Assembly (NCBI GenBank): GCA_001275005.1
Contig: JWZX01002881.1
Span: forward strand, 1-64,000
DNA from: Chrysochromulina tobinii
Taxonomy: Eukaryota
Reading direction: 5' to 3'
DNA: 64,000 nt
Part shown: positions 4,809 to 43,808 of the stretch, piece after piece
Position numbering within the stretch: position 1 is the stretch's first letter
Layout: every line of letters starts with the position of its first letter
Made by a program: the position numbers and the translations under genes
Notes under the pieces: generated by a model
Seen by the model: only the letters and a program-made list of their open reading frames with translations
The model's database searches: none
What the model was told of the DNA's origin: nothing

Positions 4809-6241
4809 ATGTGTGCATGGCATTCACAAGTGAAGTGCCAGCCACACATGCGCTTCTCCGACAGCTCAAAATGGCTTGGGCCGCAACTTGTTGTTACCAA
4901 TTTGTCTGCTTGTGCACATGCATGCTTTGCTCACCCAAGGCGATGCTCGCACTTCCTACACAACGTGCAAAACGCCTGCTACTTTCTCGGAGCTCAGGTA
5001 GAAATCATGGAAGACGCGCCACAGCATCAGAGCGTCGCATGCCGTGTGCGCCCCAGTCACAAATCGTTCGTTTTTTGGATGCCAGCATACGTTTTTGACG
5101 ATCCAGACTGGGCAAATAAGCCGTATCCATACCTATACCGGAGAGGCGCAAAGGGCCTCACGGAACGCGATGCTGGAGGCTACGATAAGAGTCAGGGCAA
5201 TCTGTTCGCGCAAATGGAGCCACGCCTCTTTTTCAATGCGCCGCGTTTCGCTGGCGTGCCTCACCGCATTGAAGACCAAGAGTCGCATATGCCAGATGCG
5301 AAAGATAAGCCCTGCACAACTTACCAAGGTGCCTTGCAATGCTTCATTGAGCACGATGAGTGGATGATGGCGGATGCTTTCGTGAATCCGAGCCACACAA
5401 TCATCGAATTCGGCGCTCGCTATGGCACCACCTCCTGCCGTCTGGCTCGACTGACCAACAATTCGGGCAACGTCGTGAGCGTCGACCCAGATCGGCAGTC
5501 CACCATGTTTCTTCTCGCCAACCGTGAGACGCATCGCTGCAATTTTCATGCGATCAGTGGGACGGTCTCAGCTACTCCTCAACGCATCCGTGCCCGCCAA
5601 GGTTACGCTACGCGCACCGACCCCATCGAGCTCACCGGCGGCCGCGCTGGCCCGGAGGAGGGCGGCATTCGCAAACTTCCGAATTTGGGCATACTTCCAA
5701 ATTTTGGCTTCCGAGAGGTCGAGGAGCACATTGACTCCCTCATCATGATTGCCTCCCTCATCATGAGCGCCTCCCTCACCATGATTGCCTCCCTCATCAG
5801 GTCGAGGAGCACATTGGCTCCAAGATTAATGCGATCCTCATCGACTGCGAAGGGTGCATACGGTCCGTGCTCTCGATCCCAGGCCTTCTCGCGCAGCTGG
5901 AACTTGTCTTGATCGAGGAGGACATGTACATGCGTGACACAAATGGGACTTCTCCGTCCGAGGACCTGATCGACTATCGACTTTGGCACAGGCACCTCGA
6001 ACAGGCTGGCTTCCGTCAGGTGTGGCGTTCACATGACACCTTCGACCCCAAGAATAAGCCTTGGTCGCGCTTCCTCTATCACAGCGCGTGGGTGCGAACG
6101 ACCAACACAAGTTACAAGCAAGACGAGAACCAATGCCAACTCCACAAACGTGCGCAAGGGCTGTCCAACGAGCAACTGCACTGTTCGACTCTTCATGAGG
6201 GCCCCTGGGACCCTGGGAATGTGCTCGGAGGTGCGGTTTAA
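4809..6241 (+). CDS. FkbM-family SAM methyltransferase; intron 5718-5800
   Basis: IIEFGARYGTTS and VVSVDPD motifs. Splicing gives FRE|VEEHIGSKINAILIDCEGC...LVLIEED. Confidence 0.8.
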
Positions 6242-6581: not shown

Positions 6582-9197
6582 TCACGCGCCCTTGAGGGTC
6601 ATGAGCACGCCGAGCACGCCCACGACGGCGCCGATCGGCACGAGCGAGTACACCGCTGCACGCTCGAGGGCAGAGCCCGCCGGGCGCGCACGCACGTAGA
6701 TGAGGGCTGGGAAGATGTACACGATCAGCGCGCCCAACACCTGATGAAGGAGGCCATCGGAAGGCAACGCATCAGAGGTACGATCAGGGAGCGCACTCAG
6801 AGGTGCAATCAGAAGTGCAATCAGAGGTGCAATCAGAGGCAATCAGAGATGCCATCAGAGGCAATCAGAGGTGCCATCAGAGGCAATCAGAGGTGCCTCG
6901 ATCGTATCGCGATCCTCACGCACGGAGCCCGAGATGCCATCAGATGCCATCAGGTGCCATCAGTGGCAATCGTAGGCAATCAGGGGCAATCAGAGGGATT
7001 CGCACGGAGCCCGAGATGCCGACGACGAGGCCGATGTCGAGGACCGTGATGGCGATGGCGGTGATCGCGGCCAACAGGCCAATGGTCAGCACGTTCGCAT
7101 GCGTCGTCGTGAGCGCGAGCAGCGCGCGCGCGAGGAGCGTGCGCGGCGCCGTCGTGGGCGCGCCCTTGACGAGCGCCGTCGTGGGCGCGCCCTTGCCGAG
7201 CGCCGTCGTGGGCGCGCCCTTGGCGGCCGGTGCGCCGCCCTGCGTGGAGGAGGAGCGGAGAGCGGTCGAGATGAGCGACGCCGTCGACTCACGCAGCCCG
7301 AGCATCGCGAGAGGGAAGCCAAAGAGGATCGAGATGAAGGTGGCGACGCGTCCAAAGGTGGCCAGCATGTCGGCAGACGCGTAGTTGGAGAGCAAGTTGG
7401 ATTTCGTCACGTCGCCAAACGTCGCGTACCTGTGGGGAAGAGGGAGGGGGGCGCCGTGGTGAGCACTTGCATGCTGGGCGAGAGAGAGACGTCAAACGTC
7501 GCGTACCCGAGCCGCATCATCCCGAGGTAGAGGGCGGTGAGGATCCCAAAGGCATACCTGTGGGGAAGAGGGTGGGGGCGCGCCGTGGTGAGCACTTGCA
7601 TGCTGGGCGAGAGACGGAGCACTTGCATGCTGGGAAGTGAGAGGGCGGTGAGGACTCCAAATGAGGCGAGAGACGGAGCACTTGCATGCTGGGAAGTGAG
7701 AGGGCGGTGAGGACTCCAAAGGAGGCATGCGTACAAGCACGCTTTGCCCGAAGCGGGCCTCGGATCGGTGCTCGAGATGAGGGGGGCAATCAGCATGCAA
7801 TCAGCATGCGTACAAGCACGCTTGCCCAAAGCGGGCCTCGGAGCGGTGCTCGAGCGACTGATGAGGGGGGCAATCAGCATGCAATCAGCATGCGTACAAG
7901 CACGCTTGCCCAAAGCGGGCCTCGGAGCGGTGCTCGAGCGACCGGTAGAAGGCGGGCGCGTTGTAGTGGGCGATGTACGCGAGCCCCAGGTTCGATGTGA
8001 GCACGAGCGCCTGATGAGGGGGGCAATCAGGACGCAATCAGCATGCAATCAGCATGCAATCAGGTCGCGAGCCCCAGGTTCGATGTGAGCACGAGCGCCT
8101 GATGAGGGGGGCAATCAGGACGCAATCAGGACGCAATCAGCACGCAATCAGCATGCAATCAGCATGCAATCAGGTCGCGAGCCCCAGGTTCGATGTGAGC
8201 GCGAGCGCCTGAGCGTTGAGCTTCCACGTCGATGCGAGCTTGAAGGCGGGTGTGAGCGCCGCAGGCAGAGCCTTGAGCAGCTTGCCGGCCGGCAGGGCAT
8301 ACGAGCCATCGAGCGCTCGGATCGCCACAAAGAACGCAGTGTACACGACGGCGACGCACCTGTGGGGAAGCGCGAGCGCCGTGGTGAGCAAGTGCATGCT
8401 GGGCGAGCGCGCGCGGATCGCCTCCAAGAGCGAGCGCCGTATCGAGCGCCGTATTCACGACGGCGACGCACCCGAGCAGCGACGTGAACGCGAGCGCGGA
8501 CACGTCCTTCAGAAGGGAGAGAGGCGTCAGCGCTACCAGTGTGATGGCCGCGATGTTGGTCGCGCGCTCGTTGAGGCCTGCGAGCATGCGGGCACGAGGC
8601 ATTCGGTGGTCATCCGAGGCATTCGATGGTCATCAGTGGCAATCGGAGGCAATCGGCGGCGGCAATCACACCTTTGGCAATCCCCGTGAGAGAGAGAAGC
8701 TGTGTGGAAGTATCGCCCAGGATGCCTGCATAGATGATGGCCGCGCTGAAGCACATGAGCGCGATTGACGCGTCCACGATCCACGCGGTGCCTTCCCCCA
8801 GCGTGGCGGCCCACAGCGACTTGAATGACATTTGGCCGGTAAGCTCGCACGAGGCGCCGATCAGATGGAAGGTCCACCCGGAGATGATGCCGAGCGCCAC
8901 GCAGAGGAGCGTGGCGGGCACGCTGCCCACACCGCCTGCCATGCCAGCCGAGAGCGTCAGAATCCCCGCGCCCGCCACATTGTTCACGATTTGGATCACG
9001 GTGCCCATCAAGCTGACTGGCGCTGGCTCCTTCAGAGCCGGCACGGCACTCTTGCGTGCCGCAAGCAGCGACGGCGCTTGTGGCGCCCGCGGGCGCCGCT
9101 CGAGCGCTCTGGGGCGTGTGTCGAGCGTGTCGGCGCTCGTCGAGGCTAGGAACACCAGCGCTGCTGCGACCTTCAGCAGTCGCGCCATCGATCTCAT
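6582..9197 (-). CDS. Amino-acid transporter (Aa_trans/SLC38-like), multi-exon
   Basis: IVNNVAGAGILTLS, LTPLSLLKDVSALAFTSLLG, AHYNAPAFY, GYATFG, SNLLSNY and VYIFPALIY segments across exons. Introns include 8360-8471, 8011-8208 and 7430-7506. Confidence 0.85.
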
Positions 9198-9291: not shown

Positions 9292-11451
9292 TTATTTCCA
9301 CAGTTCTGGGACACATTGACGAGGCACGCCGAGCGACAATCGCCTAACCCACAGGCGACAGACGCATTCGACGAGAGGCACGATGCCGCCGGCCTGTGTG
9401 ATCGCGACCTTGTTCTCATCGTTGTGCGAGAGGTTCCAATAGCAGTTCCACAGCGCACCCGCCGCGTGCTCCTTTTGACCGTCTGTCCCGCTCTGCACCA
9501 GCGTCACAAGCGTCGCGATGCCGCCGGCCTGTGCGATCGCGATCTGGTTCTCGGCGTTGAACGAAAGGTTCCAAAGCGCACCCGCCCCTTGCTCCTTTTG
9601 TCCGTCCGTTCCGCTCTGCACCAGCGTCACAAGCGGCACGATGCCACCGGCCTGTGCGATCGCGACATGGCTCCCGGCGTCGGTCGCGAGGTTCTTCAGC
9701 GCACCCGCCGCTTGCTCTTTTTGGCCATCTGTGCCACGCTCCACCAGCGTCACGAGTAGCTCGATGCCACCAGCCTGTGCGATCGCGACCTTGTTCTCGG
9801 CGTTTTGGACGGCAAGGTTCCCCAGCGCACGCGCCGCTTGCTCCTTTTGGCCGTCCGTGCCGCGCTGCGCCAGCGAAACGAGCAACGTGATGCCACCCTC
9901 CTGAGCAATCGCGACCTCAAGGTCGCTGCGGACCCTTGCGATCAAGGTCGCGTTACCATCGTTAAACGAAAGATTCCGCAGCGCACGCGCCGCTTGCACC
10001 TTTTGGCCGTCCGTCCCGCGCTGCGCCAGCTCGACAAGGGGCGCGATACCGCCGGCCTGTGCGATCGCGACCTGGTTCTCGACATTGTTCGCAAGGAACG
10101 CCAGCGCAAGCGCCGCCTGGACCTTTTGGCCGTCCGTCCCGCTCCTCGCCAGCGTCACAAGCGGCGCGATGCCGCCGGCCTGTGCGATCGCGACCTGGTT
10201 CCCGGCGTCGAGCGCAAGGCTCGCCAGCTCACGCGCCGCTTGCTCCTTTTGAAAGTCCGCCCCACCCCGCGCCCGCGCCACGAGCGTCTCGATGAGGGAG
10301 GGTTCAAATTGAAACTGCACCTTGCTCACCTTACGGGTGTAGTTCTCGAGCTTCGATGGCGGCGGCGGCGACGCCGTCTGCTCCTGATTTGACGGCATCC
10401 GCGGCGGGGGCTGCGCAGGGACGGGCGGCGGTGCCATTGCCGAGACGGCAGGCAGCAGGGGTGGCGTGGGCGCTTCGTCAATCTGCACCAGACTGACGTT
10501 GTCCGGGAAGCCACTTCGCTCGAGGGAGCTCCTCTCGGCGGCGTCGATGATCATCTTGGTCGCGTGCACCACTCTGAACTGGCTCAACGGGCGGAAGAGC
10601 ACCTCGTACTCCTTTTCCATGCCCTGGAAGATGCTAAACTTTTCAATGGAGTAGGCACGGCACGCATCGATCGTGAAGATCGTGCGCGGGCCCGGACGCA
10701 TGCCGCAAAAGTGGTCGCGCGTCATCACCTCCATCGAGGTGCTCGTCGACTTGAACTCGTACCACATGACCATCTTGCCCGTGGCAAAATATCCCTCAGG
10801 GTCATGCCGCGCAGGTGATGGGTAGCACCACTGGACACCGCGGCATACCCGACCTTTGAAGACGTAGGCAGCCGGAAGCGCCTCAAGCGCCGCGTCGAGG
10901 AACTTGATGAACGGGAGGCACGCGGTGAGCTCGGCCGAGACGCGCCCAGCACCACCCACAGCCGCTGCCGCTGCCGCCGCCGCCGCGGCTCCTCGCCGCT
11001 GCGGGTTGAACATCGCCCTGTTGATCACCTTGTGCACTGCGGGGTCGGAGAGCGTGTAAAGGTGGATGGCGATCGCAAAGTCAAGCAGATAGGTGCGTGG
11101 AAGCTGATAGGAGCCACCGTCGCTGTAGAGTTCGTTGCGCCATTCGGCCCGCTTGTCCTCAATCACTGCCTCGAGGTCGGCCATGTCGATCCCCTCGAGC
11201 AGGCCGACGAGGGGCCTCAGAGCGTCGAGCAGCGATTGTTCGAGTGGTGTTTCGGAAATGGCGCATGTGAGCCGCCGCTTCCACACAGCGTCGATGCCGA
11301 CGAAGCCGTCCGACGAAGCCGCATCAGCAGAGACCGTAGGCTCTCTTCGGTCCATGAGCTCTCTTCGTGTCTTGCCCGTGAACTCGAGGACGAGTGCGGA
11401 GGACTGCTGGCTCGGGAAAGGTCCAAACCACACCAACTTTTGTCGTTTCAT
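9292..11451 (-). CDS. R-S-E class ADP-ribosyltransferase domain fused to C-terminal armadillo repeats; no intron evident
   Basis: AIHLYT, RVCRGV, FKSTS and EKEYEVLFRP motifs. Pro-rich linker, then about 7 ARM units (IAQAGGIAPLVTL..SGTDGQKEQAA.AL.NL). Confidence 0.85.
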   Translation of the reverse strand: MKRQKLVWFGPFPSQQSSALVLEFTGKTRRELMDRREPTVSADAASSDGFVGIDAVWKRRLTCAISETPLEQSLLDALRPLVGLLEGIDMADLEAVIEDKRAEWRNELYSDGGSYQLPRTYLLDFAIAIHLYTLSDPAVHKVINRAMFNPQRRGAAAAAAAAAAVGGAGRVSAELTACLPFIKFLDAALEALPAAYVFKGRVCRGVQWCYPSPARHDPEGYFATGKMVMWYEFKSTSTSMEVMTRDHFCGMRPGPRTIFTIDACRAYSIEKFSIFQGMEKEYEVLFRPLSQFRVVHATKMIIDAAERSSLERSGFPDNVSLVQIDEAPTPPLLPAVSAMAPPPVPAQPPPRMPSNQEQTASPPPPSKLENYTRKVSKVQFQFEPSLIETLVARARGGADFQKEQAARELASLALDAGNQVAIAQAGGIAPLVTLARSGTDGQKVQAALALAFLANNVENQVAIAQAGGIAPLVELAQRGTDGQKVQAARALRNLSFNDGNATLIARVRSDLEVAIAQEGGITLLVSLAQRGTDGQKEQAARALGNLAVQNAENKVAIAQAGGIELLVTLVERGTDGQKEQAAGALKNLATDAGSHVAIAQAGGIVPLVTLVQSGTDGQKEQGAGALWNLSFNAENQIAIAQAGGIATLVTLVQSGTDGQKEHAAGALWNCYWNLSHNDENKVAITQAGGIVPLVECVCRLWVRRLSLGVPRQCVPELWK

Positions 11452-11675: not shown

Positions 11676-13315
11676 ATGGCGCCCGCTCCTGCGCCCGCCG
11701 CTGCCTTGGCAGTCTCCGAGCCGCCCTCCACCCGGCCATCGGGGAGCTCATGCGTCTGGGTCGCGAATCTGCACATCCGCAAGTGCGGTGGCACGACCGT
11801 GCGGTCCGTCTTCTCCAACATGTCCAACTGGACGCAGCTTGGGGGCTATTGCTCCGCGTCCAAGTTTGGCGACAGCAGCAAGAGCTGGAGCCAATTCGTG
11901 AATAGCTCCGAACGCGACGTGAATAGCTGGATGTATCAACACTACGTCACGTCCCACAACAACACGGGCAAGTTCTGGAGCGAGGTGCACTGCGACGAGG
12001 ACGTGAGCAACTTCAACGCGGGCGTGCGGCAGATGCGCGCCATGCTTGCACCCAAAGGGTGCCGCGTGATCACGACGCTGCTGCTGCGCGAGCCGGTCGA
12101 CCAACTGGTGAGTGACTGGACCTACTTCCGCCAAGACCCGGACAAGGTACGCACGAGCAGGCCGTCCGAGTGGGCGCCGAGGAAGCCCGAGAACCTGCTG
12201 CGATGGATGGCCGAGTCGCAGCGCGACTTTTGGACCGAGTCGGATCGCTCGCCCACGGCCCCGTGGCACGAGGCGAGATGGAATCCCATCAAGTTCCACG
12301 TCAACGGCACCACCGACACGTACCCGGTGCCACAGCTCCGCAAGTCATGCGCCGAGGCGCTCGCATTCTTCGAAGCCCAGATCGCCCAGATCGACCACGT
12401 GGGCGTGATCGACACCGCCGAGCAGTTTGCACAGTGGTGGCTTCTGCTCGCAGACGATGCGGGCTTCGATGCGGCAGTAGCGACGAGCGCGAGGCAGAAC
12501 ACGCGCATGCAAGTCTCGGTGCGCGACCGCCCGCGGCCCTCCCTTGTATGACGACTCAGCCGTTGGGGGTCTGCATGCAAGTGCTCACCACGGCGCGCCC
12601 GCACTCCCTACAGGTGCGCGACCGCTCGCGGCCCCTACCGCCGAAGGTCAGCGATGCAGAGCGGCAGGTGATGGCCGCTCTGAATGCATGCTCGACTCGT
12701 CTCCATCAATTCGCAAAGGATATCCTCGCCGCGCGCGTCGATGGCACGATCGCGGTCTTGAGCGCTGCCGTGAGCGCTGCCGCCGCCGACCGCCGCTTCC
12801 ACACGCGCCAGTCCGACATAGCCATCGCCCGGTCGCTCGGCGCAGCCGTGCATGCACCGGTACCGGTACCCGACATAGCCATCGCCCGGTCGCTCGGCGC
12901 AGCCGTGCATGCACTGGTACCGGTACCCGACATAGCCATCGCCCGGTCGCTCGGCGCAGCCGTGCGTGCACCGGTACCGGTACACAAAGCGAGCACCAGC
13001 CTCGCAGAGGACGACACAAGCGTGTACGCGCGCGCAAGGCGCTTGGTGCAGCTATGGGGCGGCGAGAACCTCGCGAGCCTAGAGGCGCTTCACGTGGATC
13101 TCGATGAGGAGGAGGAGGAGGAGGAGGAGGAGGAGGACGAGGAGGAGGCGGGGGAGGGCCTGGACTCTTCCGACTCGTACTTGTACACGCTCAAGCCCTC
13201 TCACGAGATCGACCCCAGCTTGAATCCACCGTACAGCTATCTCTCCTACGGGGGTGGGCCGGAGCGTCCCCCCGGACTCGACCCGAGCTACAACGGCGGG
13301 GAGCCGCACCAGTGA
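11676..13315 (+). CDS. Sulfotransferase-like protein (Sulfotransfer_2 type); intron 12519-12613
   Basis: LHIRKCGGTT (5'-PSB-like) and LLREPVDQLVS (3'-PB-like). The splice joins ORF 11634 to ORF 12170 in frame. Confidence 0.7.
12812..12985 (+). repeat. 57-bp coding tandem repeat x3 (DIAIARSLGAAVHAPVPVP)
   Basis: Three near-identical units seen directly. Confidence 0.9.
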
Positions 13316-27286: not shown

Positions 27287-30200
27287 TCACTTCTTGCCCT
27301 TCCCCTTGTTCCGTACCTTGATGGTGATGGGCGCAAAGTCGCAGTCGGGACGCCCACAAGCCGTGCAGTACTTGACGAGCGACGTCGACTCGGTCGCAGG
27401 GATTGCGTCCGAACGCTCCTTGGCACGCCGCGCACGCTCCTTCGCCTCGCGCAGCTTCGTCAACTGCTGCACGTTCGAGCCCTGCTTCTTGAGCATCTCG
27501 CCCACGCCGGCGTCGTCGACCCCGTACTTCTGCTTGAGGAAGTCTTTCGTTCCCTGCGGCCAGTCGCGCTTCCCGGTCATCATCTGCTCAATGTCGTCGA
27601 GCTCGCCATGCCAGCCTGAGCCCATCATCGCGTCGCTCACCCACAGGTCCTCGCCGTCGCCCTTCGCCTCCTCGTCCCCATCGCCCGCCTCCTCGCCGCC
27701 GCCCTTTTTCTCGCGCACGGTGCGTGTGAGGACGTTCGTGGTGGTGCGCACCACGGGCGCTCTCTCGTACATCTGATCCATCGGGGTCGGCTCATGCAAC
27801 GGACGCTCCTCCTCGTCGACCTCGTTGCATAAGTCACCCGACGACAGCCCGTCGTCGCCGCCGCCGCCGCTGCGACCGCCGCCGCTGCGACCGCCGCCGC
27901 TGCCGCTGCCGCTCGTCGAAGGTTCGTCAATCTCTTCAATCATCGAAGGTCCGTCAATCTCTTCAATGATCGCGCCGCCACCAGTCGAGCCAGCGGCCGG
28001 CGCGAGGTTCAACCACCCACCGCTGCTGCCGTTACCGCCAGTCGTGCGGCCGTAAGACGGTGGGTGCGAGCCACCGCCTCTGCCGCCGCCGCCACCATCG
28101 GCCGGTGGCCAGACGGGCGGCGGCTGACTGGCCGCGCCCACACCCTTGCTCCCGGCGTGCTTCTTGACCATCGCCCGCAGGCCTTCTTCATCAGCGCCTA
28201 TCAGCTCGTCCACCTTGACCTTCTTGACGAACGCCTGGAAGGTGGGCATGGCCCGCACGCCGCACGCGCGCGCCGTCTCCTGGTTCTCGTCCACGTCGAC
28301 CTTGATGAAGCACGCGTGCGGGAACTCGAGGGCGAGGGCTTCAAAAGTGGGGACGATTCTCTGGGACGGTTCGCACCACGTCGCTGTGAAGTCGACAAAG
28401 GTGGTGGTCGACGAGGCGGCGCTCTGTGCGAGGACGGCGTCGTATTCCGCCTTGGTGGCGGGCTGGCGTATGGGTGGCGAGCGCTGGCTCAGCGTCGGCT
28501 TCTGTGAAGCTGATCTCTCCTCCGCCGCCGCCCACTCGTCCGCAGTTTCGTCAAAGGGCGCGAGATCACGCACGGCGGCGTACAGATCGGCCACCTCGTA
28601 CACGCCGAGCAGCTTGGACGTCGGTTTGGCGGCGGCGCCGCCGCCCGCCGCCGCTGCCGCCGCCTTCACCTCCTTCATGCGCCGCGTCGCGCGCTTCTTG
28701 TACATGGTCGCGACGAGCGTGCCGACCGTGCGGCCGCACGCCCAAGCTGGCCCGAGGCCGCGCATTAGCTGTCGCATGCAAGGCTCGAGGGCGGCCGCCG
28801 CGTCGGGCGAGAGGCTGAGCTTCTCCTTGGCGACCATCGAGCTCGTCACCTGGGTGAGGGAGAGGGGGAGAGGGGGAGGGGGGATGGGGAGGGGGTTAGG
28901 CATGGGGTCAGGTTCGTCAGCCGTGGGTTAGGCATGGGGTCAGGTTCGGGTTCGGGCTTGCCCGTCACCTTGGCCGCAAGGCTCGCTGACCACACGGGGA
29001 AGTGGAGTGTCTTCGAGAAGCACGAGGCGAGCGTCGCGCTCGCGCCAAAGAGTTTGCCTGATGAGGGGGGCAATCGGCATGCACTTTTTCAGCGATGCAC
29101 ACTCAGCGATGCACTCAGCATGCAATCAGGTTGTCGCGTTCGCGCCAAAAAGGCTTGCCGATCTCGTCCTTGGTGCCAGCGACGATGACGACAAGCTTGC
29201 CTCGGTACTCTTCAGATAAGACGAGCTGCGACAGCGTGTCGCATACCTCCTTGTTGTACGATGCGCCGGCGCCGGCCCCCGATTCGGGCGCCATCCCGCC
29301 CGCATCGTCAATGAAGAGCACGCCCCCCAGCGCACTCTTGACGATCTCGGTCACCTGATGAGGGAGGCAATCAGCATGCACTCGGAGGCCATCAGCAATG
29401 CACTCAGAGATGCACTCAGCGAGGCAGTCAGAGGCCGAGCACTCTGAGGACGCTCGTTCACCTTGGCCTGCGTGCCGCCCAAGTACCGATCCTGCATCGT
29501 GCGCCCGCTCATCTTGACCACATTGTCGCTCGGGAGCAGCCCCACGTTCTTGAGGATGGACCCGAATCGGCAGGCGAGCGTCGCCTTACCCACGCCGGGC
29601 GCGCCGCAGAAGGCGAGGTGGCCGAGCATGCCGCGAGCGTCGCGCTCCTCCTGATGAGGGAGGCAATCAGATGCCATCAGAGGCCATCAGAGGCCATTCG
29701 AGGCCATCATAGAAGCCATTAGAGGCCACTAGAGGCAAATTAGACACAAGCAGACGCAGCAATCGCACGCAGACGCAAGCGGACGTACCTCCTTGGCAAG
29801 GCTGAGGCTCGCCTCGAGCTCATCAAAGTACTCGTGGATGAAATCGACGTCGACCAGGTCGTCGAGCGCCACGCGCACCTGTGGGGAAGGGGTGGAGGCG
29901 CCGCGGTGAGCACTTGCATGCCGATCCGAGTCGGTCGAGCCGCCACGTGGCGCACCTTGGAAAAGTCGGCCGGGTTCTTGTCAAAGTCCTCAGGCAGCAG
30001 CAGCGACTGGTTGACGCGCGTGCCGCCAGGGGGGGCTTCGCCGAGGTCCGCGGCGGCGCGCTCGGCGGCGAGGGTCTTCGTGAGGCGCGATTGCATCCGT
30101 TCTTTGGCGCGGGTGAGGGCGTTGTCGACCGAGCCCGCGTTGCCAAAGTTGGGCTTCATGCGCTCGCGAGCGATGATGGCGACGGCGTCCTCGGCGGTGG

Positions 30201-33200
30201 GCAGCGTGATCGAGAGACCGGCCGAACGAACCTGTGGGGAAGGGGTAGGCGCGCCGTGGTAAGCACTTCGCCCTTGATGTGTACGAGCGCGCCATGGTGA
30301 GCACTTGCATGCGCACCTTCTCCCTCAGGATGTGAACGAGCTGCGGGTCAGTGTAGTCGGCGAAGAGGAAGGCGTCCTCGGGCCGAAAGCGCCTCGCGAG
30401 CCCCGGGTTGGCATCGCGCAGCAGCGCGTTCACGTCGTCCTCGTAGCCGCACATGATGATCGCGATGTCCTCCCCGGGGGTACCTTGCACCTGATGAGGG
30501 GCGTCATCGGATGGCAATCAGAGGCGATCAGATGGCAATCCGTTCGTCATCAGATGGTCCTCAGATGGCAATCAGGGTACCTTTTGCACAATGGTATCGA
30601 CGACATTCGCGCAAAAGGAGTTGGACGAGCGCTTCGGGTTGAGGCCGTAGCACTCGTCGATCAGCAGTACCTGGTGAGCATCGTGGTGAGAGGGCGTCGT
30701 GGTGAGCATTTGCATGCGCTCGGCCTGTTCGCGCCGTGATGAGCATTTGCATGCGCTCGGCCTGTTCGCGCCGTGGTGAGCATTTGCATGCGCTCGGTCT
30801 GTTCGAGTCGTCGATGAGCCGCACCTTGCCTCGGCAAGCTTCGAGAAGCTCGACCGTCTTGCGCTCGCTCTCACCGACCGCAGAGCCCAAAAAGTCCGAG
30901 GGTCCCTTGACGACCACCTGATGAGGGAAGCCATCAAGGGAGGTCATCAGGGAGGTCATCAGGGAGGTCATCAGGGAGGTCATCAGGGAGGTCATCAGGG
31001 AGGTCATCAGGGAGGTCATCAAGGAGATCGCACCTCGCCGTTCGAGAGGAAGCCGAAACGCTTGAGGAGTCGCCCAAAGAGCTGTGGAAGGAGGGCCAAG
31101 CGCCGCGGTGAGCACTTGCATGCACGGTAGGGGTCCTGGGTTGAGCGCTCCGCGTACCTTGGCGACGGTCGTCTTGCCAGTGCCGGGCTTGCCGTAGAAG
31201 ATCCGATGGAGAGGGACATAGAGAGGCTTCTCGCCTCGAGCCTCGCGCTCCCAGTTGCCCAGCTGGAGGTGCATCAGCTCGCGCACCTGATGAGGGATGC
31301 AATCATATGCAATCAGATGCAATCAAGGGGTGCAATCAAGCTGGAGGTGCATGAGCTCGCGCACCTTGGCCTTCACCTCGTCGAGGCCGGTGAGTGTCTC
31401 TAGCTCCTTGAGCTCAGGCGAGTTGTCGAGCACCGGCTTGGCACCCTGATGAGGGGCGCAATCAAGAGGCGTCCTCAGAGTTCATCAGAGTGCTCATCAG
31501 TGGGATCATCAGCGCTCATCAGCAGGATCATTAGTGCTCATCAGTGGTATCATCAGTGCTCATCAGTGGCCTCCGTACCAGCGCATCCTCCCGCGAGATG
31601 GTCGTCGCCATCTCAGCGCTCGGCGTCTCGCCTCCGTCGATGAGCATCGAGAGGCGCTCCTCTTGTCGCTTGATAGCTTGCTCGATCTGATTGCGCACCT
31701 GATGAGGCAGCCAATCAGCATGCACTCAGCCACGCAGCATTACGAGGTTGAGAATCTGGCGGCAATCAAGGGTTGCAATCAAGGGGTGCAATCAAGAGGC
31801 GTCATCAGAGGTCATCAGAGGTTGAGGATCTGGCGGCGGCGCACCGCGCGCGCGTTGCCAAAGCCGCGCTGCCCCGCGCCGTAGGCGAGGCGCGAGGCGA
31901 CGATCGACGCGACCGACGGGCTTGCCTGATGAGGGGAGCAATCAGCATGCACTTTTTCAGCGATGCACACTCAGCGATGCACGCAGCATGCAATCAGGTT
32001 GTCGCGTTCGCGCCAAAAGAGCTTGCCGACTCGACGACCATCTTGCGGTCGCTCATCATCTTGTGATAGATGGCGCGCAGCTCGGGCTCGAGATAGTCCT
32101 CGAAGACCCACCTGATGAGGGGCGTAATCGGAGGTCATCAGTGGCAATCAGCTGGCAGGTAGCATGCACTCAGAGGCGCACTCACGTGTTTGGGAAGCGC
32201 GACGCGAGCCCCGGGTTGAACGAGAGTAACGTCTCGACTTCATCACGGTAGCCCGCAAGCACAACCGAGCACTCGCCACGCTTATCCTCCGCAAAGGTGA
32301 GCAGCAGGTTCATGATGTCGGCGCCGTCCTTGTTGTTCTTCGGGTCGAGCTGGTACACCTCGTCAATGAAGAGCACGCCGCCGTCGACCTGCTCGAGCAT
32401 CTTCTTGAACTCGTCCGCGCCGTCCCGGAGCAGATTACCGCCGGTGGTGCTCCGTATTTCGGAGCTCGAGCGCAGCTTGAAGTCGTGCAGGATCTTGGCC
32501 ATCAGACGCGACACCTCCGTCTTGCCCGTACCTGATGATAGAGGCCGTCAGGCGTCATTAGAGGCGTCATTAGAGGCAATCAGAGAGGCCACCAGGGGCC
32601 ATCATTAGAGGCCATCAAGGGCAATCAGAGGCCATCAGACGTGCCCGGGTTGCCGATGAAGACAAAGTGGCGGTTCACGTCGGCGGTAGCGTCCGCCGGC
32701 TTCAGGCTTGCAAGCTCGACGGAGTACGCGACGTTGAGCGCGTCGCGCTTGATGCGCTCGAGGCCGACCATCGCCATCAACTTGTCCATCGCGCTCGACT
32801 TAATCTCGGGGTGCTTGAGCTTGTACCTGATGAGGGAGGCCATCAGCCATCCTCAGAGGCCATCAGAGGCCATCAGAGGCCATCAGAGGCCATCAGAGGC
32901 CATCAGAGGCCATCAGTGGTCATCAGAGGCCATCAGAGGCCATCAGAGGTCATCAGAGGTCATCAGAGGCCATCAGAGGCCATCAGAGGCCATCAGAGGC
33001 CATCAGAGATCATCAGACGTACCGCTCCCACTGCGCCTTCGCCAGCGACGCGGATGCCGATTCGAGCGGATCGTCGTCGTCGTTCTCCATCAGCTTCTCG
33101 ACCGTATCCTTATTTGGGTCGAGCCAGAGCGCCGCCTCTGCCTCGAAGAGGGCGAACGTGCGCAGGTACAGCGATGCACGCAGTCGGTGCTCCTTGGCGG

Positions 33201-36200
33201 GCTTGAGCAGCTTGTGCGCGAGATAGCACCCGTAGAGTACGACGGGGTCGAAGGCGGCCTGCGGCATCGGCGTCTCGAAGGTGCGCAGGTACACCTCGAT
33301 GCGTCGACGCGGCTCGACTGGGTCCCAGCCCTGAGGAAGGAGGCCATCAGGCGTCATCAGGCGTCATGACAGCTCATCGATCGACATCAGAGCTCATCAG
33401 AGCTCATCCGGCTCATCAGTGGCAATCAAGGTACCTCCTTGAGCTGCGAGAGTGCGGAGTAGATTTGGCAATCAGTGGCAATCAGTGGCCATCAGTGGCA
33501 ATCAAGGTACCTCCTTGAGCTGCGAGAGTGCGGAGTAGATCTGGCCGCGCGGATCCGCCGTCTGGTCGCAGAGCTCGTACCTGATGAGGGAGGCAATCAG
33601 AAGGGTCATGGCATGGTACACGGCGGCAATCAGAGGATCCTCCGCGGCAATCAGAGGCAATCAGAGGCAATCAGACGTACGCCTTCTGGTACTCCTTGCG
33701 CAGTAGATGGCACACGCCCTGGCGCAGCTGCGCGTCGGCGCTCTTGAACTTGTCGTCGATCCGAGACGTCGCGTCCGCACCAAACGAGGCCTCGAGGGCG
33801 GTGTACATGGCGCGCAACGCGATGGGCGGCAGCAGTCGCGCCGCCTCGAGCGTTGGGCGCATGGCGCGCGCGCGGGCTGCTCGCGGCAACGGCTGTGCCT
33901 CGCCCTCGGACGACGGCGTAACCACCAAGGGCGGCCGGAGGTCAGAGGTCGAGGCGGGAGGGGCGGTGGCCTCCGCCCCCGCCCCCGCCGATGCCGCCGC
34001 CGCCGCCGCCGACCCCGCCGCCGCCAATGACGACGACGACGCGGACGATGGCATCGGTGCAGACGCATTCTTAGCGGCTGCGGGCGTGCGCTCCATGAGG
34101 AGAGAATCGAGCTCATCGACGGCCGCACGGCGCTCGGCAGAGGCGGCTGCCTCGGCCGCCCGCTCAGCCGCCTGCTGCTCCTTTTGCAGCCGTGCGGCGG
34201 CTAGGCGCGCATTGACGACGTCGAGTGCCTCGACGAGCACCTGATGAGGGGTGCCATCACGAGGTGTCATCAGAGGTCATCAGAGGTCATCAGAGGTCAT
34301 CAGGGGTCATCAGAGGGCCGTGTAGATCGGTCCGAGCGCCGTAACGAGCACCATGTCACCGCTGACCGGTGTGAAGTGCTTCACGTGGAGCTCCGTCGCC
34401 AAATGATACACCTTCTCACCGACGCCATCGGCCACATGCCCGCCGGAGCGCCCGGCAAGATCGATAGCCTTCAGAATGCGCGTGGGCAGCCCTGATGAGG
34501 AAGGTCATTAGAGGTCATAGAAGCCAAATGAGAGGCAAGTAGAGGTCATGAGAGGCGAACAGCTTGCGTACCGCACCCCTCCGCCTCGGCTTGGAATCAG
34601 AGGTCATCAGAGGCACTCATATGTCATCGGAGGCAATCAGCGTACCGCACCCCTCCGCCTCGGCTTGGAATCAGAGGTCATCAGTGGCACTCATATGTCA
34701 TCGGAGGCAATCAGCGTACCGCACTCCTCCGCCTCGGCTTGGAATCGCTGCCCTCGCTCACCACTGGCCGAGAGGAGTTTGAGGAGGCCTTTGAGTGCGA
34801 TGAGCAGCGTAGGCATCACGTACGCCATGTCGGAGCTCGAGCCTTCGCCCTCGCCGCTCACCCCGCCGCTCACCTGAGGAGGGAGGCCATCAAGGCAGCT
34901 GATGAGGGCGGCCATCAAGGCAGCTGAGGAGGGAGACCATCAAGGCAGCTGATGAGGGAGGCCATCAAGGCAGCTGAGGAGGGAGGCCATCAAGGCAGCT
35001 CACTGAGATCATCCTTGCAAAGAGTTCGACCGGCTTGATCTTATTGATTGCCGAGAGCATGAGCAGGCCCATCGGCAGCAACCCCTGCTTGCCCTTCACC
35101 TCGACCTGCACCTGCGTCTTGTCATCGCTCAATTTCGTCACCTTCCCAATGTCGGAGGCAGACTCAAACGGCGCGAGCACCGTTGGGGCCTTCTCGCCCT
35201 GAGGCTTGTCCGAGAGCATGACCTTGTCGCCGACCTTGGTCGACTTGACCTTATGCGCCTCCTCCCACTTGGTAAGAGACAGGCACAGGCTCTCGACCTC
35301 ACCATCTCCCGCGCAATTCTCGAGCGCGACCGCGAGAACACCGCCCGCCGCGGCGCGCACCGTCGTCGGACGCGTCTCGTCGATCGAGATCGCGTAGATC
35401 GGTCCTGATGAAGGAGATTATCAGGATATTATGATACTACGTACTATGTCATCAGAGGTCATCAATAGGCCATCAATAGGCCATCAGAGCACCGTACACC
35501 TCCGGGTCGAAGGCGAGCTCCGCCCGTAATCAGAGGTCATCAGAGGTCATCAGAGGTCATCAGCGCACCGTACACCTCCGGGTCGAAGGCGAGCTCCGCC
35601 CGATGCTTCTCAAAATGGCAGAGCGTCCTCGCGAGCAGTACGAGCGCCAGCTTGCACACGGGCTCATCGTCGAGCGCCGCCGCGTCGCAAAAGTGCTTCA
35701 CGATGCTCCCGTTCTCCTTCATCCGGTTGAGGACCACCGCGCCGGCCGTCTCGCCGCTCGCCGTCGCTGCTGCCGCGGCGGCGGTGTCGCCCGTCGACTC
35801 CGGTTCGTCATCCGTATTAGGCAAACCCATGCCTGTGCCTTCGGCCTCGGTGACCGTGTTGAGCACGTCGAGCGGCCGCAGCAGATGGGCATGTCGCGCC
35901 GGCGGCGTCGCCGGATCACCCTGTTTGGCTTTGAGGTACTCGGCAATGCGCTTGGTCGCCTGCTCCACCTGATGAGGGAGGCAATCAGTCGCGCTCAGCT
36001 CGCAATCAGGAGACCATCAAGAGGCGACGGCGCTCGATCGCCTGCTCCACCTGATGAGCTAGGCAATCATCGTCATCAGAGGCAATCATCGTCATCAGAG
36101 GCAATGCACCTCGCTTGGCAGCCACTTGGCCACGTTGTCGCACAGAGCTTGCACCGGCGCCATGCCACCCAGCGTCATCGCCTTGATCAGGTCGAGCACC

Positions 36201-37640
36201 ACATCGCGTAGCGCCGCCTCGAGCGCCTCCATCCCCTTAGCTTCCTTCTCCTTGTCGCGTAGGGGCTCGTCCGTCACCGCGAGGAGGAGCATCACGATGT
36301 CCTAGACGACTTCTCGCTCGAGAAAGGCGCCGAGGGCGGTCGCCTGCTCGGCCGTGGCGGCGGCGCCGAGTTGGGCGGCCTGTTTCTTGTCGATGCGTGC
36401 GGCGAGCGCATGCAAGAGAGTACCGGCCTCGACGAGGTACCTGAATGAGGGAGACTATCCGAGGTCATCAGAGACCATCCGAGGCAATTAGAGGTCATCC
36501 GAGGCCATCGAGGCCATCCGAGGTCATCCGAGGCAATGGAGGCCATCAGAGGCCACATCGGAGGCCATTACTAGGGGATTGGAGGCCATCAGAGGTCATT
36601 AAGAGGCCATTAAGAGGCCATTAAGAGGCCATCAGAGGCCATTAAGAGGGTATTAAGAGGGGATCGGAGGTGATTGGAGGCCAGCCGACGTACTGGAGGG
36701 TGGCTGGCGAGAGCTTCTTCGTGCCCAGCATCGCCTTCGACTGCAGCGAGCTCGAGAGCGAGAAGGTGCACTGTGGATCGATCTGCAGGGGCGGCCGCAG
36801 CGAGGGCGATGCGCGCAGCATCTTCGCAAGCGTTCCGAAGAGGCCAGTGAGGTTCCACTTGGGGAGGAGCTCGCAGAGAGGGTTCTTCTTCTCTGGATCG
36901 AGCGCTTGGCTCATATTGGCCCGTGAGCGTTGCACGCTGCTCTCGCCCCACGTGATGGCGAGCGACAGCACTGGCCCCATCGATTCGGCAGCTCGAAAAT
37001 CGATGCTCGTCGAGATCATCGAGATCGTCGCGTCGGCTGTGTCGCCGCCGCCGTCGGTGCCGCTCTCGGCGAGGGCACGGCAGATGCGCTCGCACGCGCT
37101 GAAAACCTGCAGCACGCTCATGCCGCGCATGAAGATGTCGGTGAGCGTCTCGGCACGCGCCTTTTCGACGCCCTCAAACGGCGGCTCCGCAAGCAACGAG
37201 CGATCCGAGCTCTTCTTCTTCTGCTCATTCTCCATCTTGCGAGCACGTATCGTGCTGAGCAGCGCCGCGCACTCGTCAAAGAGGACCTCGAAGCTCTGGC
37301 GCGCGCCCTCCATGGCCTCCATCAGCGTCGCTCCCTCCGCCGAGCGCAAGAAGCGTCCCCACAGCTCGCACACCTGATGAGGGACGCCATCAGCATGCAC
37401 TCAGAGAGGCAATCAACGGCAATCGAAGAGGCCATCCAGAAGCGTCCCCACAGCTCGCACACCGAATCCAGCGTGCTCACGTAGCTCGCAAGCGTCGCGA
37501 GCGCCGTGACTGCATGCAGCTGCACCCGCTCCGTGCGCATCGGATGGGAGAGCACCCACGAGATGACGCGCAGCGACGGCACGAGGATTTCGTCATTGGG
37601 CGAGTCATCGGCGTGGAACACGGACTCCATAAGAGTCCTC
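27287..37640 (-). CDS. Intron-rich gene: helical N-terminal region, three CbbX/SpoVK-type AAA+ modules and a thioredoxin domain; an in-frame TAG at 36302-36304 may mean it is partly pseudogenised
   Basis: AAA1: GNPG|TGKT, GGVLFIDEVY, NPGLASRFP. AAA2: GKPGTGKT, LLIDECY, NPGLARRF. AAA3: GAPGVGKA, GGVLFIDDAG. Trx: VDFTATWCEPS...MPTF. Roughly 20 or more introns inferred. Confidence 0.8.
29058..29158 (-). mobile_element. 101-nt GC-AG intron, putative source copy
   Basis: About 5 differences from 31926-32026. Its 5' ~26 nt duplicate its own downstream exon. Confidence 0.65.
31926..32026 (-). mobile_element. 101-nt GC-AG intron, putative transposed copy
   Basis: Near-identical to 29058-29158. It carries the exon tag of the 29057 site rather than its own. 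Confidence 0.65.
32835..33017 (-). repeat. Intronic 9-10-bp microsatellite (ctctgatggc)n, representative of many similar tracts
   Basis: Related tracts at 6790-6995, 29660-29735, 30930-31022, 34260-34315 and 36460-36660. Confidence 0.9.
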
Positions 37641-40106
37641 CAAGAGTGCTCGTACTTCGAGAGCAGCTCACCCTGCTTGATGCCGATGTGGTCAATCTTG
37701 GAGCTCTCGAGTTCCTGAACGGCGTCCATGCCGTCCTCACCGTAGAGGAACTCGAGCACCTTGCCGGCGTTACGCACGGTGTCGTCGTATTTGACGATGA
37801 TGTCCTCCATCGCCTTCACGAGACGGCGCTGGATGTAGCCCGTCTCCGCCGTCTTGACCTTGTTGAGCACTTGGTTGACCGAATGCTCGAACGACTCCAT
37901 CATCGTCTTGCCGGGCTGGCACTCGAGCTCGGCCGACTGGGCGCGCTCGACGAGCGCCTTCACCTCGCGCTTGGACGCCTCGATGGTGGCGACGATGTCG
38001 TCCAACGTCTTCGCATCAGCGATCGTGTCACCGATCCCGATCGAGTACGAGCGCTGCAAAATCCTGTGGTTCACGACGCGCTGATGGCAGCCCAAAAAAA
38101 CGCGGGCTGCCCTGCGGCCCGTGCTCGAGCCAGATCGTGTGCACGATCGCACCGCCGCTCGTGCCAAGCATCTTCTTGTCGAGCATGCCTGCGAGCAGTT
38201 CGCCGCCGTCGGGTGAGAAGACAATCAGAGGCCATCATCGGTCGGATGCAATCAGAAGCCACCAGAGGCCATCAGAAGCGAGCATGCCTGCCAGCAACTC
38301 GCCGCCGTTGATGATGACCTTCGTGTCGGTGGGCGACATATCGTCTTTCTCGTCGTCGGGGCGACCGTTGGATGTGCCTGAGAGGTAGATGTTCGGCAAA
38401 AAGAGACCCATGATCTGCTTGCCCGTCCAGAGCGGCTTGGGCTTGAGGATGGCGGGCGCGGGCAGCTTACCCGAGAACGAGTCGAGGTGCAGGATCAGAT
38501 TCATCACGAGGTCCTTCTCGAGAAGCAGTCGGGTCGCGTGAAGGCACGCAAGCCGAGGAGGGTATCCTGCACGATGCCCATGACGAGCTTGTTCGACTGT
38601 GGCGACACGATGCAGCGCGGCGTGAGCATGATCTCGGAGCACTCGGCGCGCGTCTCGTGCGTCTGCAGCACGTGCGTGTTCATCTTGTCGCGTCAAAGTC
38701 GACATTGTACAGCGAGGTACAGCTGAGATTCATCCGGAAGGTGGAGTAGGGCATGATCTTGATGCGGTGGCCCATGATCGACATTTTGTGCAGCGACGGC
38801 TGCCGGTTGAACATGAAGATGTCGCCGTCTTGCACATGCCGCTCCACCTTGTACCCGGGCTGCAGCGCCTTTTGGACGTTTGGCTTCGACAAGCCGAGAC
38901 GCAGACCGTCGTTGCGGATGATGTAGCGTGCGCCGGGCAGCGTCGACGGCCCATTTTCAAAGAGCTCCTGCAGCTTGGCGATGTTGAAGGGCGTGACCAC
39001 CTCCGGGTACGTGAGCGTGCGTGCGACCGTGCGCGGAACGCCCACCTCATCGATGGCGAGATTCGGGTCGGGCGTGATGACCGAGCGAGCGCAGTAGTCA
39101 ACTCGCTTGCCCATGAGGTTGCCGCGGATGCGGCCCGCTTTCCCTTTGAGGCGCTGCGAGATGGACTTGAGCGGCCGACCCGAGCGTGTGGTCGCGGGCA
39201 TCATGCTCACGGAATCTGATTCTCCACCATCATCGCGATGCGGTACTGGAGCAGCCGCGTCGTCTGCAGCTGGATGTGGTTGGGCGCTCCATTCTTCTCG
39301 AGCTCTCGCAACGACTTATTGACGCGCACGATGTCCTGGAGCATGAGAGTGATGTCATCCTCGGCGCGCCCGCCCGTCGAGTCCATCTAGACCGACGGGC
39401 GCACGTGCGGCGGCGGGATCGGCAGCACGGTGAGCACCATCCAGTCGGGCCGCGCGTAAATTGGATTGAAGCCGAGCCGCAACGCATCCGAGTCGGTGAT
39501 GCCCTTGAGAATGCTATGCGCGCGCTCGGGCTGCACTTCCATCTTGCGCTCGTGGTCGTCCGTAGACTCCTTAAACTCGGCCGCGATCGTCAGCCCGTCG
39601 CGCTTGAAGTTCGGTTGCGGCGCCGAGCACGACCAGCACGTCTTCTTCGTCTTCGCAAAGTCCATCACGGCGCGCAGCCGCTGCGCCGGGTTCTTCTTGC
39701 GCGTGGCAGCGGCGAGGCGTACCCCGTCGGGGTTTGCCTTGCCGTCTTCGGCTGGCTGGTCGCCAAGGATGGCCGAGCACGAGAAGCAAACGCAGCGCAG
39801 CACCTTGAGCGTCGTGTTGAGGAAGGAGACGTGGTACATGGGCTTCGTGAGCTCCAAGTGCCCGAAGTGACCCGGGCACTCAGAGGAGTCCATGCCGCAG
39901 CTCGCGCAGTTCAGGAGGCGGTCGATGGCGCCGAGCGCCGGGTCCATGAGCCCGCCAGGGATGGGCTTGCCATTCTCAAAGGTGCGGTCAGTGACGATAT
40001 TGCACACCGACGACGCCTTCAGCTCCTCGGGACCGAGGATGCCAAACTGGACGCGGCGCACCTTGCGCACGCCCGCCTCCGAGTAGCGGAAGCTCACGCC
40101 GCTCAT
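37640..40106 (-). pseudogene. RPB1: Disrupted N-terminal half of the RNA polymerase II largest subunit
   Basis: [66 protein letters not shown] and YGEDG motifs. TAG at 39387-39389, frameshifts near 39205, 38692, 38517 and 38105, internal deletion at 37858/37859. No C-terminal half or CTD. Confidence 0.9.
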
Positions 40107-42738: not shown

Positions 42739-43143
42739 TCACCCAAGTCTGGAGTCGTAGCCGCCGCCGCCCGCGTGCCATGGCCTTCTGGGCTGGAAGG
42801 GCGCCTTGTTGCACGGATTGTCCACATCATTCTTGATCACTTCCTTGACTGACACCTGTTGGCTCTCCGCCGTGGGCCGCCAATGCAAGCCCTCCCCCCT
42901 GAAATGGCTCTCCACCTGCCGCGTCTGCTCGGGCGTCGCGTCGTAGTACTCCGTCTGGATCTTTTTGGGCGCGGGGAAGAGGATTTCTGAGCGCTCCTCC
43001 TCAGACAGCTGGTACCACTTTGAGCGCTCCTGGGAGCGCTGCAGCCGCTGCTCGGAGATCTTCTGCGCGTACGACATATTGGCGAGGCGCGCGTCCGCCG
43101 CGGAGACCGTCGTGTTGAAGCGCACCGCCATGGCGAACGACAT
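42739..43143 (-). CDS. Small hypothetical protein (134 aa), inverted paralog A
   Basis: MSFAMAVRFNTTVSAADAR..., near-identical to 43401..43808. Confidence 0.8.
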   Translation of the reverse strand: MSFAMAVRFNTTVSAADARLANMSYAQKISEQRLQRSQERSKWYQLSEEERSEILFPAPKKIQTEYYDATPEQTRQVESHFRGEGLHWRPTAESQQVSVKEVIKNDVDNPCNKAPFQPRRPWHAGGGGYDSRLG

Positions 43144-43400
43144 GTGGCCCGACGCCACAGGGACCAGCGCTCTAAAATGCGTGTCGTTTTCCAAAAGTGT
43201 CGAAACTTGGAGCGAAAAGAAATTCCGAAACGCGCCTTTTGCCGCAGTTCCTCGCTTTGGTCGAACCGGGTGTGGACAGATCCACAAAGCTGTTTTCTGG
43301 TGCCGCTCCAAATCTCATAAAACTTTGTCGGCTTTTGAAGCCCCGGAACACACGCGCTCGTATCGCACGGTAACGCGAGAGGAGACGCACGGGCACCGCC

Positions 43401-43808
43401 ATGTCGTTCGCCATGGCGGTGCGCTTCAACACGACGGTCTCCGCGGCGGACGCGCGCATGGCTAGTATGGCATACGCGCAGAGAATCGCTGAAGAGCGGC
43501 TGAAGCGCTCCCAGGAGCGCTCAAAGTGGTACCAGCTGTCTGAGGAGGAGCGCTCAGAAATCCTCTTCCCCGCGCCCAAAAAAATCCAGACGGAGTACAA
43601 CGACGCGACGCCCGAGCAACAGCGACAGGTGGAGAGCCATTTCAGAGGGGAGGGTATGCACTGGCGCCCCCCGGCGCAGAGCCAAAAGGTGACGATCAAT
43701 GACCTCGTCAAACTCGATCCAGTCAATCCAATCAACAGGGCACCCTATCAGCCCAGAAAGCCGTGGCATGCGGGAGGCGGCGGCTATGACACCGCCATGG
43801 CGTGTTGA
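43401..43808 (+). CDS. Small hypothetical protein (135 aa), inverted paralog B
   Basis: Collinear with paralog A. Differences look mostly synonymous or conservative. Confidence 0.8.
   Translation: MSFAMAVRFNTTVSAADARMASMAYAQRIAEERLKRSQERSKWYQLSEEERSEILFPAPKKIQTEYNDATPEQQRQVESHFRGEGMHWRPPAQSQKVTINDLVKLDPVNPINRAPYQPRKPWHAGGGGYDTAMAC

What the first reader, a model, noticed from the sequence alone, without database searches (positions are those of the whole stretch)
29058..32026. Apparent intron transposition with direction: a 101-nt copy carries the exon tag of its birthplace
Seen: introns 29058-29158 and 31926-32026 have the same length and differ at about 5 positions. Both start GCAAGC..TTTTGGCGCGAACGCGAC. 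This matches the exon after the first intron (GCAAACTCTTTGGCGCGAGCGCGAC) but not the exon after the second (GCAAGCCCGTCGGTCG). The sites are non-homologous (AAA3 core, phase 1, versus AAA1 lid, phase 0) and share only TCG|GCAA. Removing either restores the frame (EIG|KLFGAS; VVES|ASPSVA..GFGNARA). Inference: the intron arose at 29058 and was copied precisely to 31926 within the same gene. That fits reverse splicing or microhomology-guided copying. Directional cases of spliceosomal intron transposition are rarely demonstrable.
Basis: partly seen in the sequence, partly recalled or inferred. Interest (0 to 1): 0.9.

Follow-up and report, generated by a model that had tools for sequence, protein, structure and literature searches.

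The report
Intron copied with its birthplace tag
Two nearly identical 101-base introns sit at unrelated positions of one gene in a freshwater alga, and both begin with a copy of the exon that follows only one of them, so that one is likely the original and the other likely a precise copy steered by a short sequence match at the landing site, a rare case where the source of an intron can be read from the DNA.

Summary
Confirmed. Introns A (29058-29158) and B (31926-32026) are 96/101 identical GC-AG introns at non-homologous sites of a Chrysochromulina tandem-AAA gene. RNA contigs splice A exactly; a transcript-like contig lacks B exactly; other assemblies and populations hold both, so mis-assembly is rejected. 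The 26-nt start of both copies the exon after A and keeps the Asn codon found in 59 of 60 other AAA modules, where that exon now has Ser. Such tags are a local birthmark: 12 of 57 candidate acceptors have one; B is the only foreign tag. Direction A to B is therefore well supported (about 0.88). B's site is the best match to A's junction among 339 other splice-compatible sites, which favours homology-guided copying (repair or reverse-transcriptase template switch) over reverse splicing. Not shown: that B's site was empty before; every DNA allele found carries B and no outgroup DNA was reachable, so overwriting of an older intron stays open. Same-gene twin introns are known; a readable donor is the new part. 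The scan noted repeat-flanked introns before on other DNA of this genome (e1-2577349).

The parts
29058..29158 (-). Intron A, 101 nt, GC-AG, phase 1, in the third AAA module; inferred donor
   Evidence: Joint 29053-29155, skip 101, in RNA runs X13 and X14; identical in L001-L003
29133..29158 (-). Exon tag in A: 26-nt copy of the exon start that follows A
   Evidence: Score 14.5 against own exon; reads Asn where the exon reads Ser
29033..29057 (-). Source of the tag: first 25 nt of the exon after A
29058..29132 (-). Body of A: 10-11-nt repeats and the acceptor motif shared by many introns of this genome
   Evidence: the acceptor bins collect many contigs in run X1
31926..32026 (-). Intron B, 101 nt, GC-AG, phase 0, in the lid of the first AAA module; inferred copy
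   Evidence: Absent exactly from transcript-like L006; present in L001-L005, L007 and run X1; read-through in KOO35114.1
32001..32026 (-). Foreign tag in B, matching the exon after A
   Evidence: Score 17.0, the only foreign tag in 75 kb
32027..32033 (-). Upstream exon end at B, resembling the exon end before A (3 exact bases, about 7 with one gap)
31919..31925 (-). Downstream exon start at B, identical to the first 7 bases of intron A (6 of intron B in the window)
   Evidence: native to the site, since ortholog P0128 has the same length here
27287..36301 (-). Host gene, 3' part: three SpoVK/CbbX-like AAA modules and a thioredoxin domain; 2018-aa open frame after removing the modelled introns
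   Evidence: L004 aligns to the spliced model without gaps
37374..37462 (-). 89-nt intron with a perfect 25-nt own-exon tag; shows that tagged introns come and go as a unit
   Evidence: Present in window and L007, absent with one repeat copy in L001-L003

Best explanation
Intron A was likely born at 29058 together with a duplicate of the next 25 exon bases, and the whole intron was later likely copied, by template switching guided by a roughly 10-base match at the junction, into a site 2.9 kb upstream in the same gene that probably had no intron. Because A begins with a copy of its own downstream exon, the same six or seven bases at the target match both ends of the donor: a broken DNA end (or a reverse transcriptase) could enter at A's left junction, copy 101 bases and return at the repeat, leaving the reading frame untouched. 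Shown: the sequences, splicing of A, exact absence of B from a transcript-like contig, the tag's origin in exon A, the junction match. Inferred: direction, the empty target, the repair or template-switch chemistry. DNA versus RNA template is not resolved; DNA is slightly preferred because the introns 85 and 81 bases on either side of B are still there.
For: Tags are local birthmarks: 7 of 26 introns of this gene score 8 or more against their own exon versus 8 of 650 foreign pairs; 12 of 57 candidate acceptors in 75 kb have a local tag of score 11 or more, and B is the only foreign one. One tagged intron is a presence/absence difference with a single repeat in the empty form. The tag has the Asn codon present in 59 of 60 other AAA modules, while exon A has Ser, so it is old coding sequence of site A. 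B's site has the longest contiguous junction match (10 nt) of all other positions of the 6057-nt CDS, 339 of them splice-compatible. Ortholog P0128 (63%) has no indel at B, so nothing but the intron was added. Apart from B, only 1 of 237 G|GC sites in the CDS holds an intron, so a prior intron at B is unlikely a priori.
Against: No DNA allele or relative without B was found; P0128 runs through the site but its contig may be RNA. A 10-nt match is short, and such a site is not rare in itself (0.07 expected for the 10-mer, 0.28 for the 9-mer); among the 17 sites that match at -3 to +2 the rank chance is only 1 in 17. B alleles are a patchwork of A-like and non-A-like states (X14 and X15), which suggests later exchange between the copies and blurs the original event. 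At positions 7-8 the usual B allele is closer to exon A than A itself is (17.0 versus 14.5).
Confidence: 0.55

Rival explanations
1. Overwrite: B's site already held an intron of the same family, and ectopic gene conversion from A replaced its sequence, using the junction match on the left and the shared acceptor motif on the right. Direction A to B holds, but no intron was gained.
For: The gene is intron-dense (26 modelled); family introns share 20-28 nt at the acceptor, giving more homology than an empty site; the L004 and X14 allele of B carries A's states at positions 7, 8 and 44, as later conversion would give.
Against: Only 1 of the other 237 G|GC sites carries an intron; no remnant of an own tag beyond the 6-7 shared bases; the allele pattern also fits mutation from an A-like ancestor plus recombination.
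Confidence: 0.2
2. Reverse splicing: the excised A lariat was spliced back into the same transcript (or displaced DNA strand) at B and fixed by reverse transcription and recombination.
For: End-to-end, same strand, same gene, no exon change; both spliced and retained forms of A and B occur in RNA contigs; the model is the one usually proposed for twin introns (PMC3443670, PMC3609843, passages).
Against: It does not need a match of 6-7 bases in the downstream exon, yet B is the best-matching site; neighbouring introns 85 and 81 nt away are kept; no special fold of the intron (z -0.94 and +1.19).
Confidence: 0.12
3. Other source or reverse order: the tagged intron came from an unseen paralog with an intron at the A-equivalent site, or exon A sequence first invaded an intron at B and that intron was then copied to A through the long tag homology.
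For: The common B allele is one step from exon A at positions 7-8 whereas A is two or three; partial duplicates of the gene exist (L006-L010).
Against: Needs two ectopic events where local tagging is common; the duplicates seen cover the first AAA module with B, and none covering site A was seen.
Confidence: 0.1
4. Assembly artefact or chance match.
For: The window appears to join two paralogous copies near 35 kb.
Against: B with its tag is joined to exon B in L001-L005, L007, in contigs of X1, X13, X14, X15 and in the C. tobinii protein KOO35114.1; A and B differ at fixed positions.
Confidence: 0.02

Closest known systems
Same-gene duplicated introns (SGD) of fungi and C. elegans (Collemare et al. 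2013, PMC3609843, passages)
   Same: Near-identical introns at two places of one gene; 82 members reported in fungi, half without duplicated flanking exons and possibly transposed within a transcript.
   Different: Here the flanks are non-homologous and an exon tag names the donor; the passages read give no direction for the fungal cases.
Intron transposition by reverse splicing, and the template-switching variant of Roy and Irimia (PMC3443670 and PMC3609843, passages; PMC10996645, passages)
   Same: Whole intron, precise, same strand; 14 cases counted in the 2012 review, two laboratory events in yeast cited in the 2024 preprint.
   Different: The target matches the donor junction on both sides, which the canonical model does not require; no RNA step is shown here.
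Intron gain with direct repeats by staggered-break repair (Daphnia, PMC4202315, passages) and tandem genomic duplication (PMC3443670)
   Same: Describes the birth of A and of the other own-tagged introns: insertion with a direct repeat that supplies the donor site.
   Different: Repeats here are about 15-35 nt and come with a family-type acceptor body; in Daphnia the source of most new introns is unknown.
Introners (PMC9860276, passages; bioRxiv 10.1101/2020.10.14.339549, part 1 of 4; PMC12130899, passages)
   Same: One splice site carried, the other taken from the duplicated target; introners with 4-bp duplications are reported from a marine Chrysochromulina MAG.
   Different: This 101-mer occurs at two sites only; duplications are long and variable, not 4 or 8 nt; the second copy carries the first site's duplication with it, which a transposon would not.
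Intron transfer between paralogs (PMC3443670, passages)
   Same: Recombination moves an existing intron into an intron-free position.
   Different: Transfer uses homologous positions; A and B are 48 alignment columns apart and share about 10 bases.

Membership tests
Same-gene duplicated introns | Near-identical introns within one gene | tested here: met
   96/101; next pair 72%
Same-gene duplicated introns (non-segmental half) | Flanking exons not duplicated with the intron | tested here: met
   Similarity ends 4 nt downstream and about 7 nt upstream; sites 48 columns apart
Intron transposition (reverse splicing) | Both copies are spliced introns | tested here: met
   A: joint in X13, X14. B: exact absence in L006; X13 contig 8 and depth arithmetic agree
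Intron transposition (reverse splicing) | Precise insertion, coding sequence unchanged | tested here: met
   Open frame; no indel against P0128
Intron transposition (reverse splicing) | Recipient position had no intron before | tested here: inconclusive
   All DNA alleles carry B; no outgroup DNA
Intron transposition (reverse splicing) | RNA intermediate and reverse splicing | not testable with these tools
   Junction match argues mildly against
Introner / introner-like element | Many near-identical copies in unrelated genes | tested here: not met
   Two sites in the window; tag bin in run X1 explained by the B contig alone, 170.6 = 348.9 x 22/45; contigs cannot prove absence
Introner / introner-like element | Stable secondary structure (fungal ILEs) | tested here: not met
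   z -0.94 and +1.19
Introner / introner-like element | Fixed-length target duplication and terminal inverted repeats | tested here: inconclusive
   Own-exon repeats vary in length; inverted ends not searched for specifically
Intron transfer between paralogs | Donor and recipient at homologous positions | tested here: not met
Repeat-flanked intron gain (for intron A) | Direct repeat at the intron start and the next exon start | tested here: met
   empty form seen for the sister case at 37374, not for A

The most novel reading that the evidence does not exclude
In this alga, introns born with a copy of their downstream exon become self-targeting donors: ordinary repair can paste a whole intron precisely into any site that resembles its junction, without a transposase and without reverse splicing, and every copy keeps the address of its birthplace. 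A genome-wide search for foreign tags would then give a directed genealogy of intron gains.
Probability: 0.3. Interest if true: 0.82.

Novelty: new variant of a known kind. Interest (0 to 1): 0.64.

Why it matters
Sources of new spliceosomal introns are rarely found and the direction of copying between twin introns is usually unreadable (PMC3443670, PMC4683709, PMC4202315, passages). Here a built-in tag names the donor, and the target shows a junction match. Because tags are common in this genome, the old question of whether twin introns arise by reverse splicing or by homology-guided repair becomes testable by counting junction matches at foreign-tagged introns.

Tried and rejected
No whole genome is held for the window, so the genome-wide BLASTN could not be run; DNA-run contigs were used instead. 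The tag pattern found 0 matches in viral contigs; protein scans of viral contigs and genome contigs gave no haptophyte DNA (one viral and six bacterial AAA loci at 29-36%). The search of protein representatives gave no close relative beyond P0127 and P0128 among the 150 listed. L006 lacks B but also lacks four other introns exactly and shares variants with DNA locus L007, which has B, so it was read as a transcript, not as an empty allele. The idea that the copy carried six exon bases (Ala-Ser) from A was rejected because P0128 has the same length there. The hole in run X1 over 29185-29319 and the missing unspliced 5' junction of A in X14 were not used (filtered contigs prove nothing). Run X21 held only family motifs. 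Contig depth (about 300 at B, about 100 at A in X1) was not used as a copy number; paralogs are shown by L006-L010 and P0127. The first tag scan mixed in intron-internal repeats and was replaced. In one search, five 'foreign' rows were dropped before counting: four were an exon matched to itself shifted by 2-4 bases, one a tandem neighbour; low-complexity exon starts were skipped by the script, and acceptors were found by motif, so 57 is not the true intron number. PMC2784329 (passages) held nothing on these introns. Ten paper searches listed no report of exon-tagged or directionally copied introns in haptophytes; the library lacks most subscription papers and no supplements were read, so introner tables in supplements of PMC9860276 and PMC12130899 may bear on this.
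Full report
Observation. On the minus strand, 29058-29158 (A) and 31926-32026 (B) are 101 nt long, start GC, end AG and differ at positions 7, 8, 44, 83 and 90. They interrupt a large gene with three SpoVK/CbbX-like AAA modules and a thioredoxin domain. A model with 26 introns leaves an open frame of 2018 aa back from the stop, and the partly spliced contig L004 aligns to the modelled CDS in four gap-free pieces. The organism is Chrysochromulina tobinii or very close to it: protein KOO35114.1 is 100% identical over 64% of a query from this region. A and B are the only close pair among 325 intron pairs (95%, next 72%), and the two sites lie 48 columns apart in an alignment of 61 AAA modules, so this is not a by-product of the module repeat.

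Are they real and spliced? RNA contigs of runs X13 and X14 join 29053 to 29155, skipping 101 nt with 5 ambiguous bases, which is intron A. For B the joint was not among the rows shown, but contig 8 of X13 has 30 unlisted letters whose depth fits the bin at 32022-32054 (48.0 computed, 48.5 seen), and contig L006 lacks B exactly together with four other introns while DNA locus L007, with the same variants, has it. Unspliced forms of both also occur in RNA contigs. B with its tag is joined to its own exons in L001-L005 and L007, in contigs of X1, X13, X14 and X15, and the C. tobinii protein ends by reading into the tag. X1 and L001-L003 look like the window's own strain, so they test the assembly only; L005, X14/L004 (possibly one sample), X15 and KOO35114.1 carry other alleles.

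The tag. The first 26 nt of both introns match the exon after A. B scores 17.0 against that exon and 6.0 against its own; the next of 650 foreign pairs scores 9.5. Read in the exon's frame the tag has Asn where exon A has Ser, and 59 of the 60 other modules have Asn in that column: the tag is an older copy of site A's coding sequence. Tags are a general birthmark here: 7 of 26 introns of the gene score 8 or more against their own exon, against 8 of 650 foreign pairs, and in 75 kb 12 of 57 motif-found acceptors have a local tag of score 11 or more while B is the only foreign one after five self-matches were dropped. The 89-nt intron at 37374-37462 has a perfect 25-nt tag and is absent, with one repeat left, from L001-L003; gain or loss through the repeat cannot be told apart there (microhomology-mediated loss is known: PMC3698931, abstract). 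No other tag-bearing locus showed in run X1: the tag bin is explained by the B contig alone, while acceptor bins collect many contigs. B does recur inside broken segmental duplicates of the first AAA module (L006, L007, P0127), so it is older than those.

Direction. Since tags are made locally and this one belongs to A, the simplest history is birth at A and copying to B (about 0.88). The reverse needs two ectopic steps. One wrinkle: at positions 7-8 the common B allele is closer to exon A than A is, so A probably changed after the copy; the L004/X14 allele of B has A's states at 7, 8 and 44, and the X15 allele has A's states at 83 and 90. This patchwork fits later conversion between the copies, or mutation from an A-like ancestor with recombination.

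Mechanism. B's site matches A's left junction over 10 contiguous bases, the longest match at any other position in the 6057-nt CDS and 1 of 339 other splice-compatible sites. Such a site is not improbable in itself (0.07-0.28 expected), and against the 17 sites matching at -3 to +2 the chance is 1 in 17, so the argument is moderate. The six or seven downstream bases are native to site B, since the 63% ortholog P0128 has the same length there. Because intron A starts with its own exon start, those bases match both ends of the donor, which is what a template switch needs for a precise insert (inference). Reverse splicing needs no such match (established knowledge; PMC3443670 and PMC10996645, passages). 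The introns fold no better than shuffles. Neighbouring introns 85 and 81 nt from B are kept, slightly favouring a DNA template.

What is open. Gain at an empty site is not shown. All five DNA-type loci reaching the site carry B, and scans for outgroup DNA failed. Only 1 of the other 237 G|GC sites has an intron, against 13 of 102 G|GT sites, so an earlier intron at B is unlikely, but conversion between two existing family introns would be easier than insertion; I give overwrite 0.2.

Comparison and novelty. Twin introns in one gene are known (82 fungal members, half without duplicated flanks; PMC3609843, passages), intron transposition had 14 indirect cases in 2012, repeat-flanked gains are known from Daphnia and introners from a marine Chrysochromulina. 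This case fails the introner test (two sites) and the paralog-transfer test (non-homologous sites), and meets the same-gene-duplicate definition. Ten searches listed no paper on an exon tag giving the direction of an intron copy; supplements were not read. Verdict: real, a new variant of a known kind, interest 0.64, mainly because the tags make the mechanism testable genome-wide.

Noticed in passing
window 35000-37633: The window matches pseudogene-type locus L007 without substitutions over 35-39 kb and the intact locus L001 below 35 kb (6 differences near 31-32 kb), so it joins two paralogous copies near 35 kb: an assembly chimera or a recombinant.
   Followed up: partly
window 37634-38729: Pieces of the RNA polymerase II largest subunit (Pfam Rpb1 domains 3 and 5), apparently with internal parts missing, are fused in frame to the AAA gene copy; L001-L003 have the true upstream part instead.
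   Followed up: partly
L006, L008-L010: Another broken duplicate fuses an unrelated gene to the AAA gene at window 32731 and appears to be transcribed and spliced.
   Followed up: partly
window 7858-8208, 33331-33510, 34492-34719, 34874-35003, 35405-35568, 35969-36109: Tandem duplications spanning an exon-intron junction (acceptor plus exon start, or exon end plus donor) inside introns; some differ between copies of the gene. They may be a route to own-exon tags.
   Followed up: partly
window 29879-29955, 30232-30316, 30671-30824, 31082-31157: A second intron family with a different repeated motif also shows own-exon tags in two of four members.
   Followed up: partly
window 3439-3537, 5718-5801, 7429-7506, 7557-7730, 8359-8471, 12519-12614: Own-exon tags in introns of other genes, on both strands.
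   Followed up: partly
window 42751-43793: Inverted repeat with 394-nt arms, 86% complementary, 255 nt apart.
   Followed up: no
window 9446-10396: Repeat with a 123-nt period.
   Followed up: no
window 29132: In run X15 intron A has a variant at position 27 that lengthens the match to the exon by one base.
   Followed up: no
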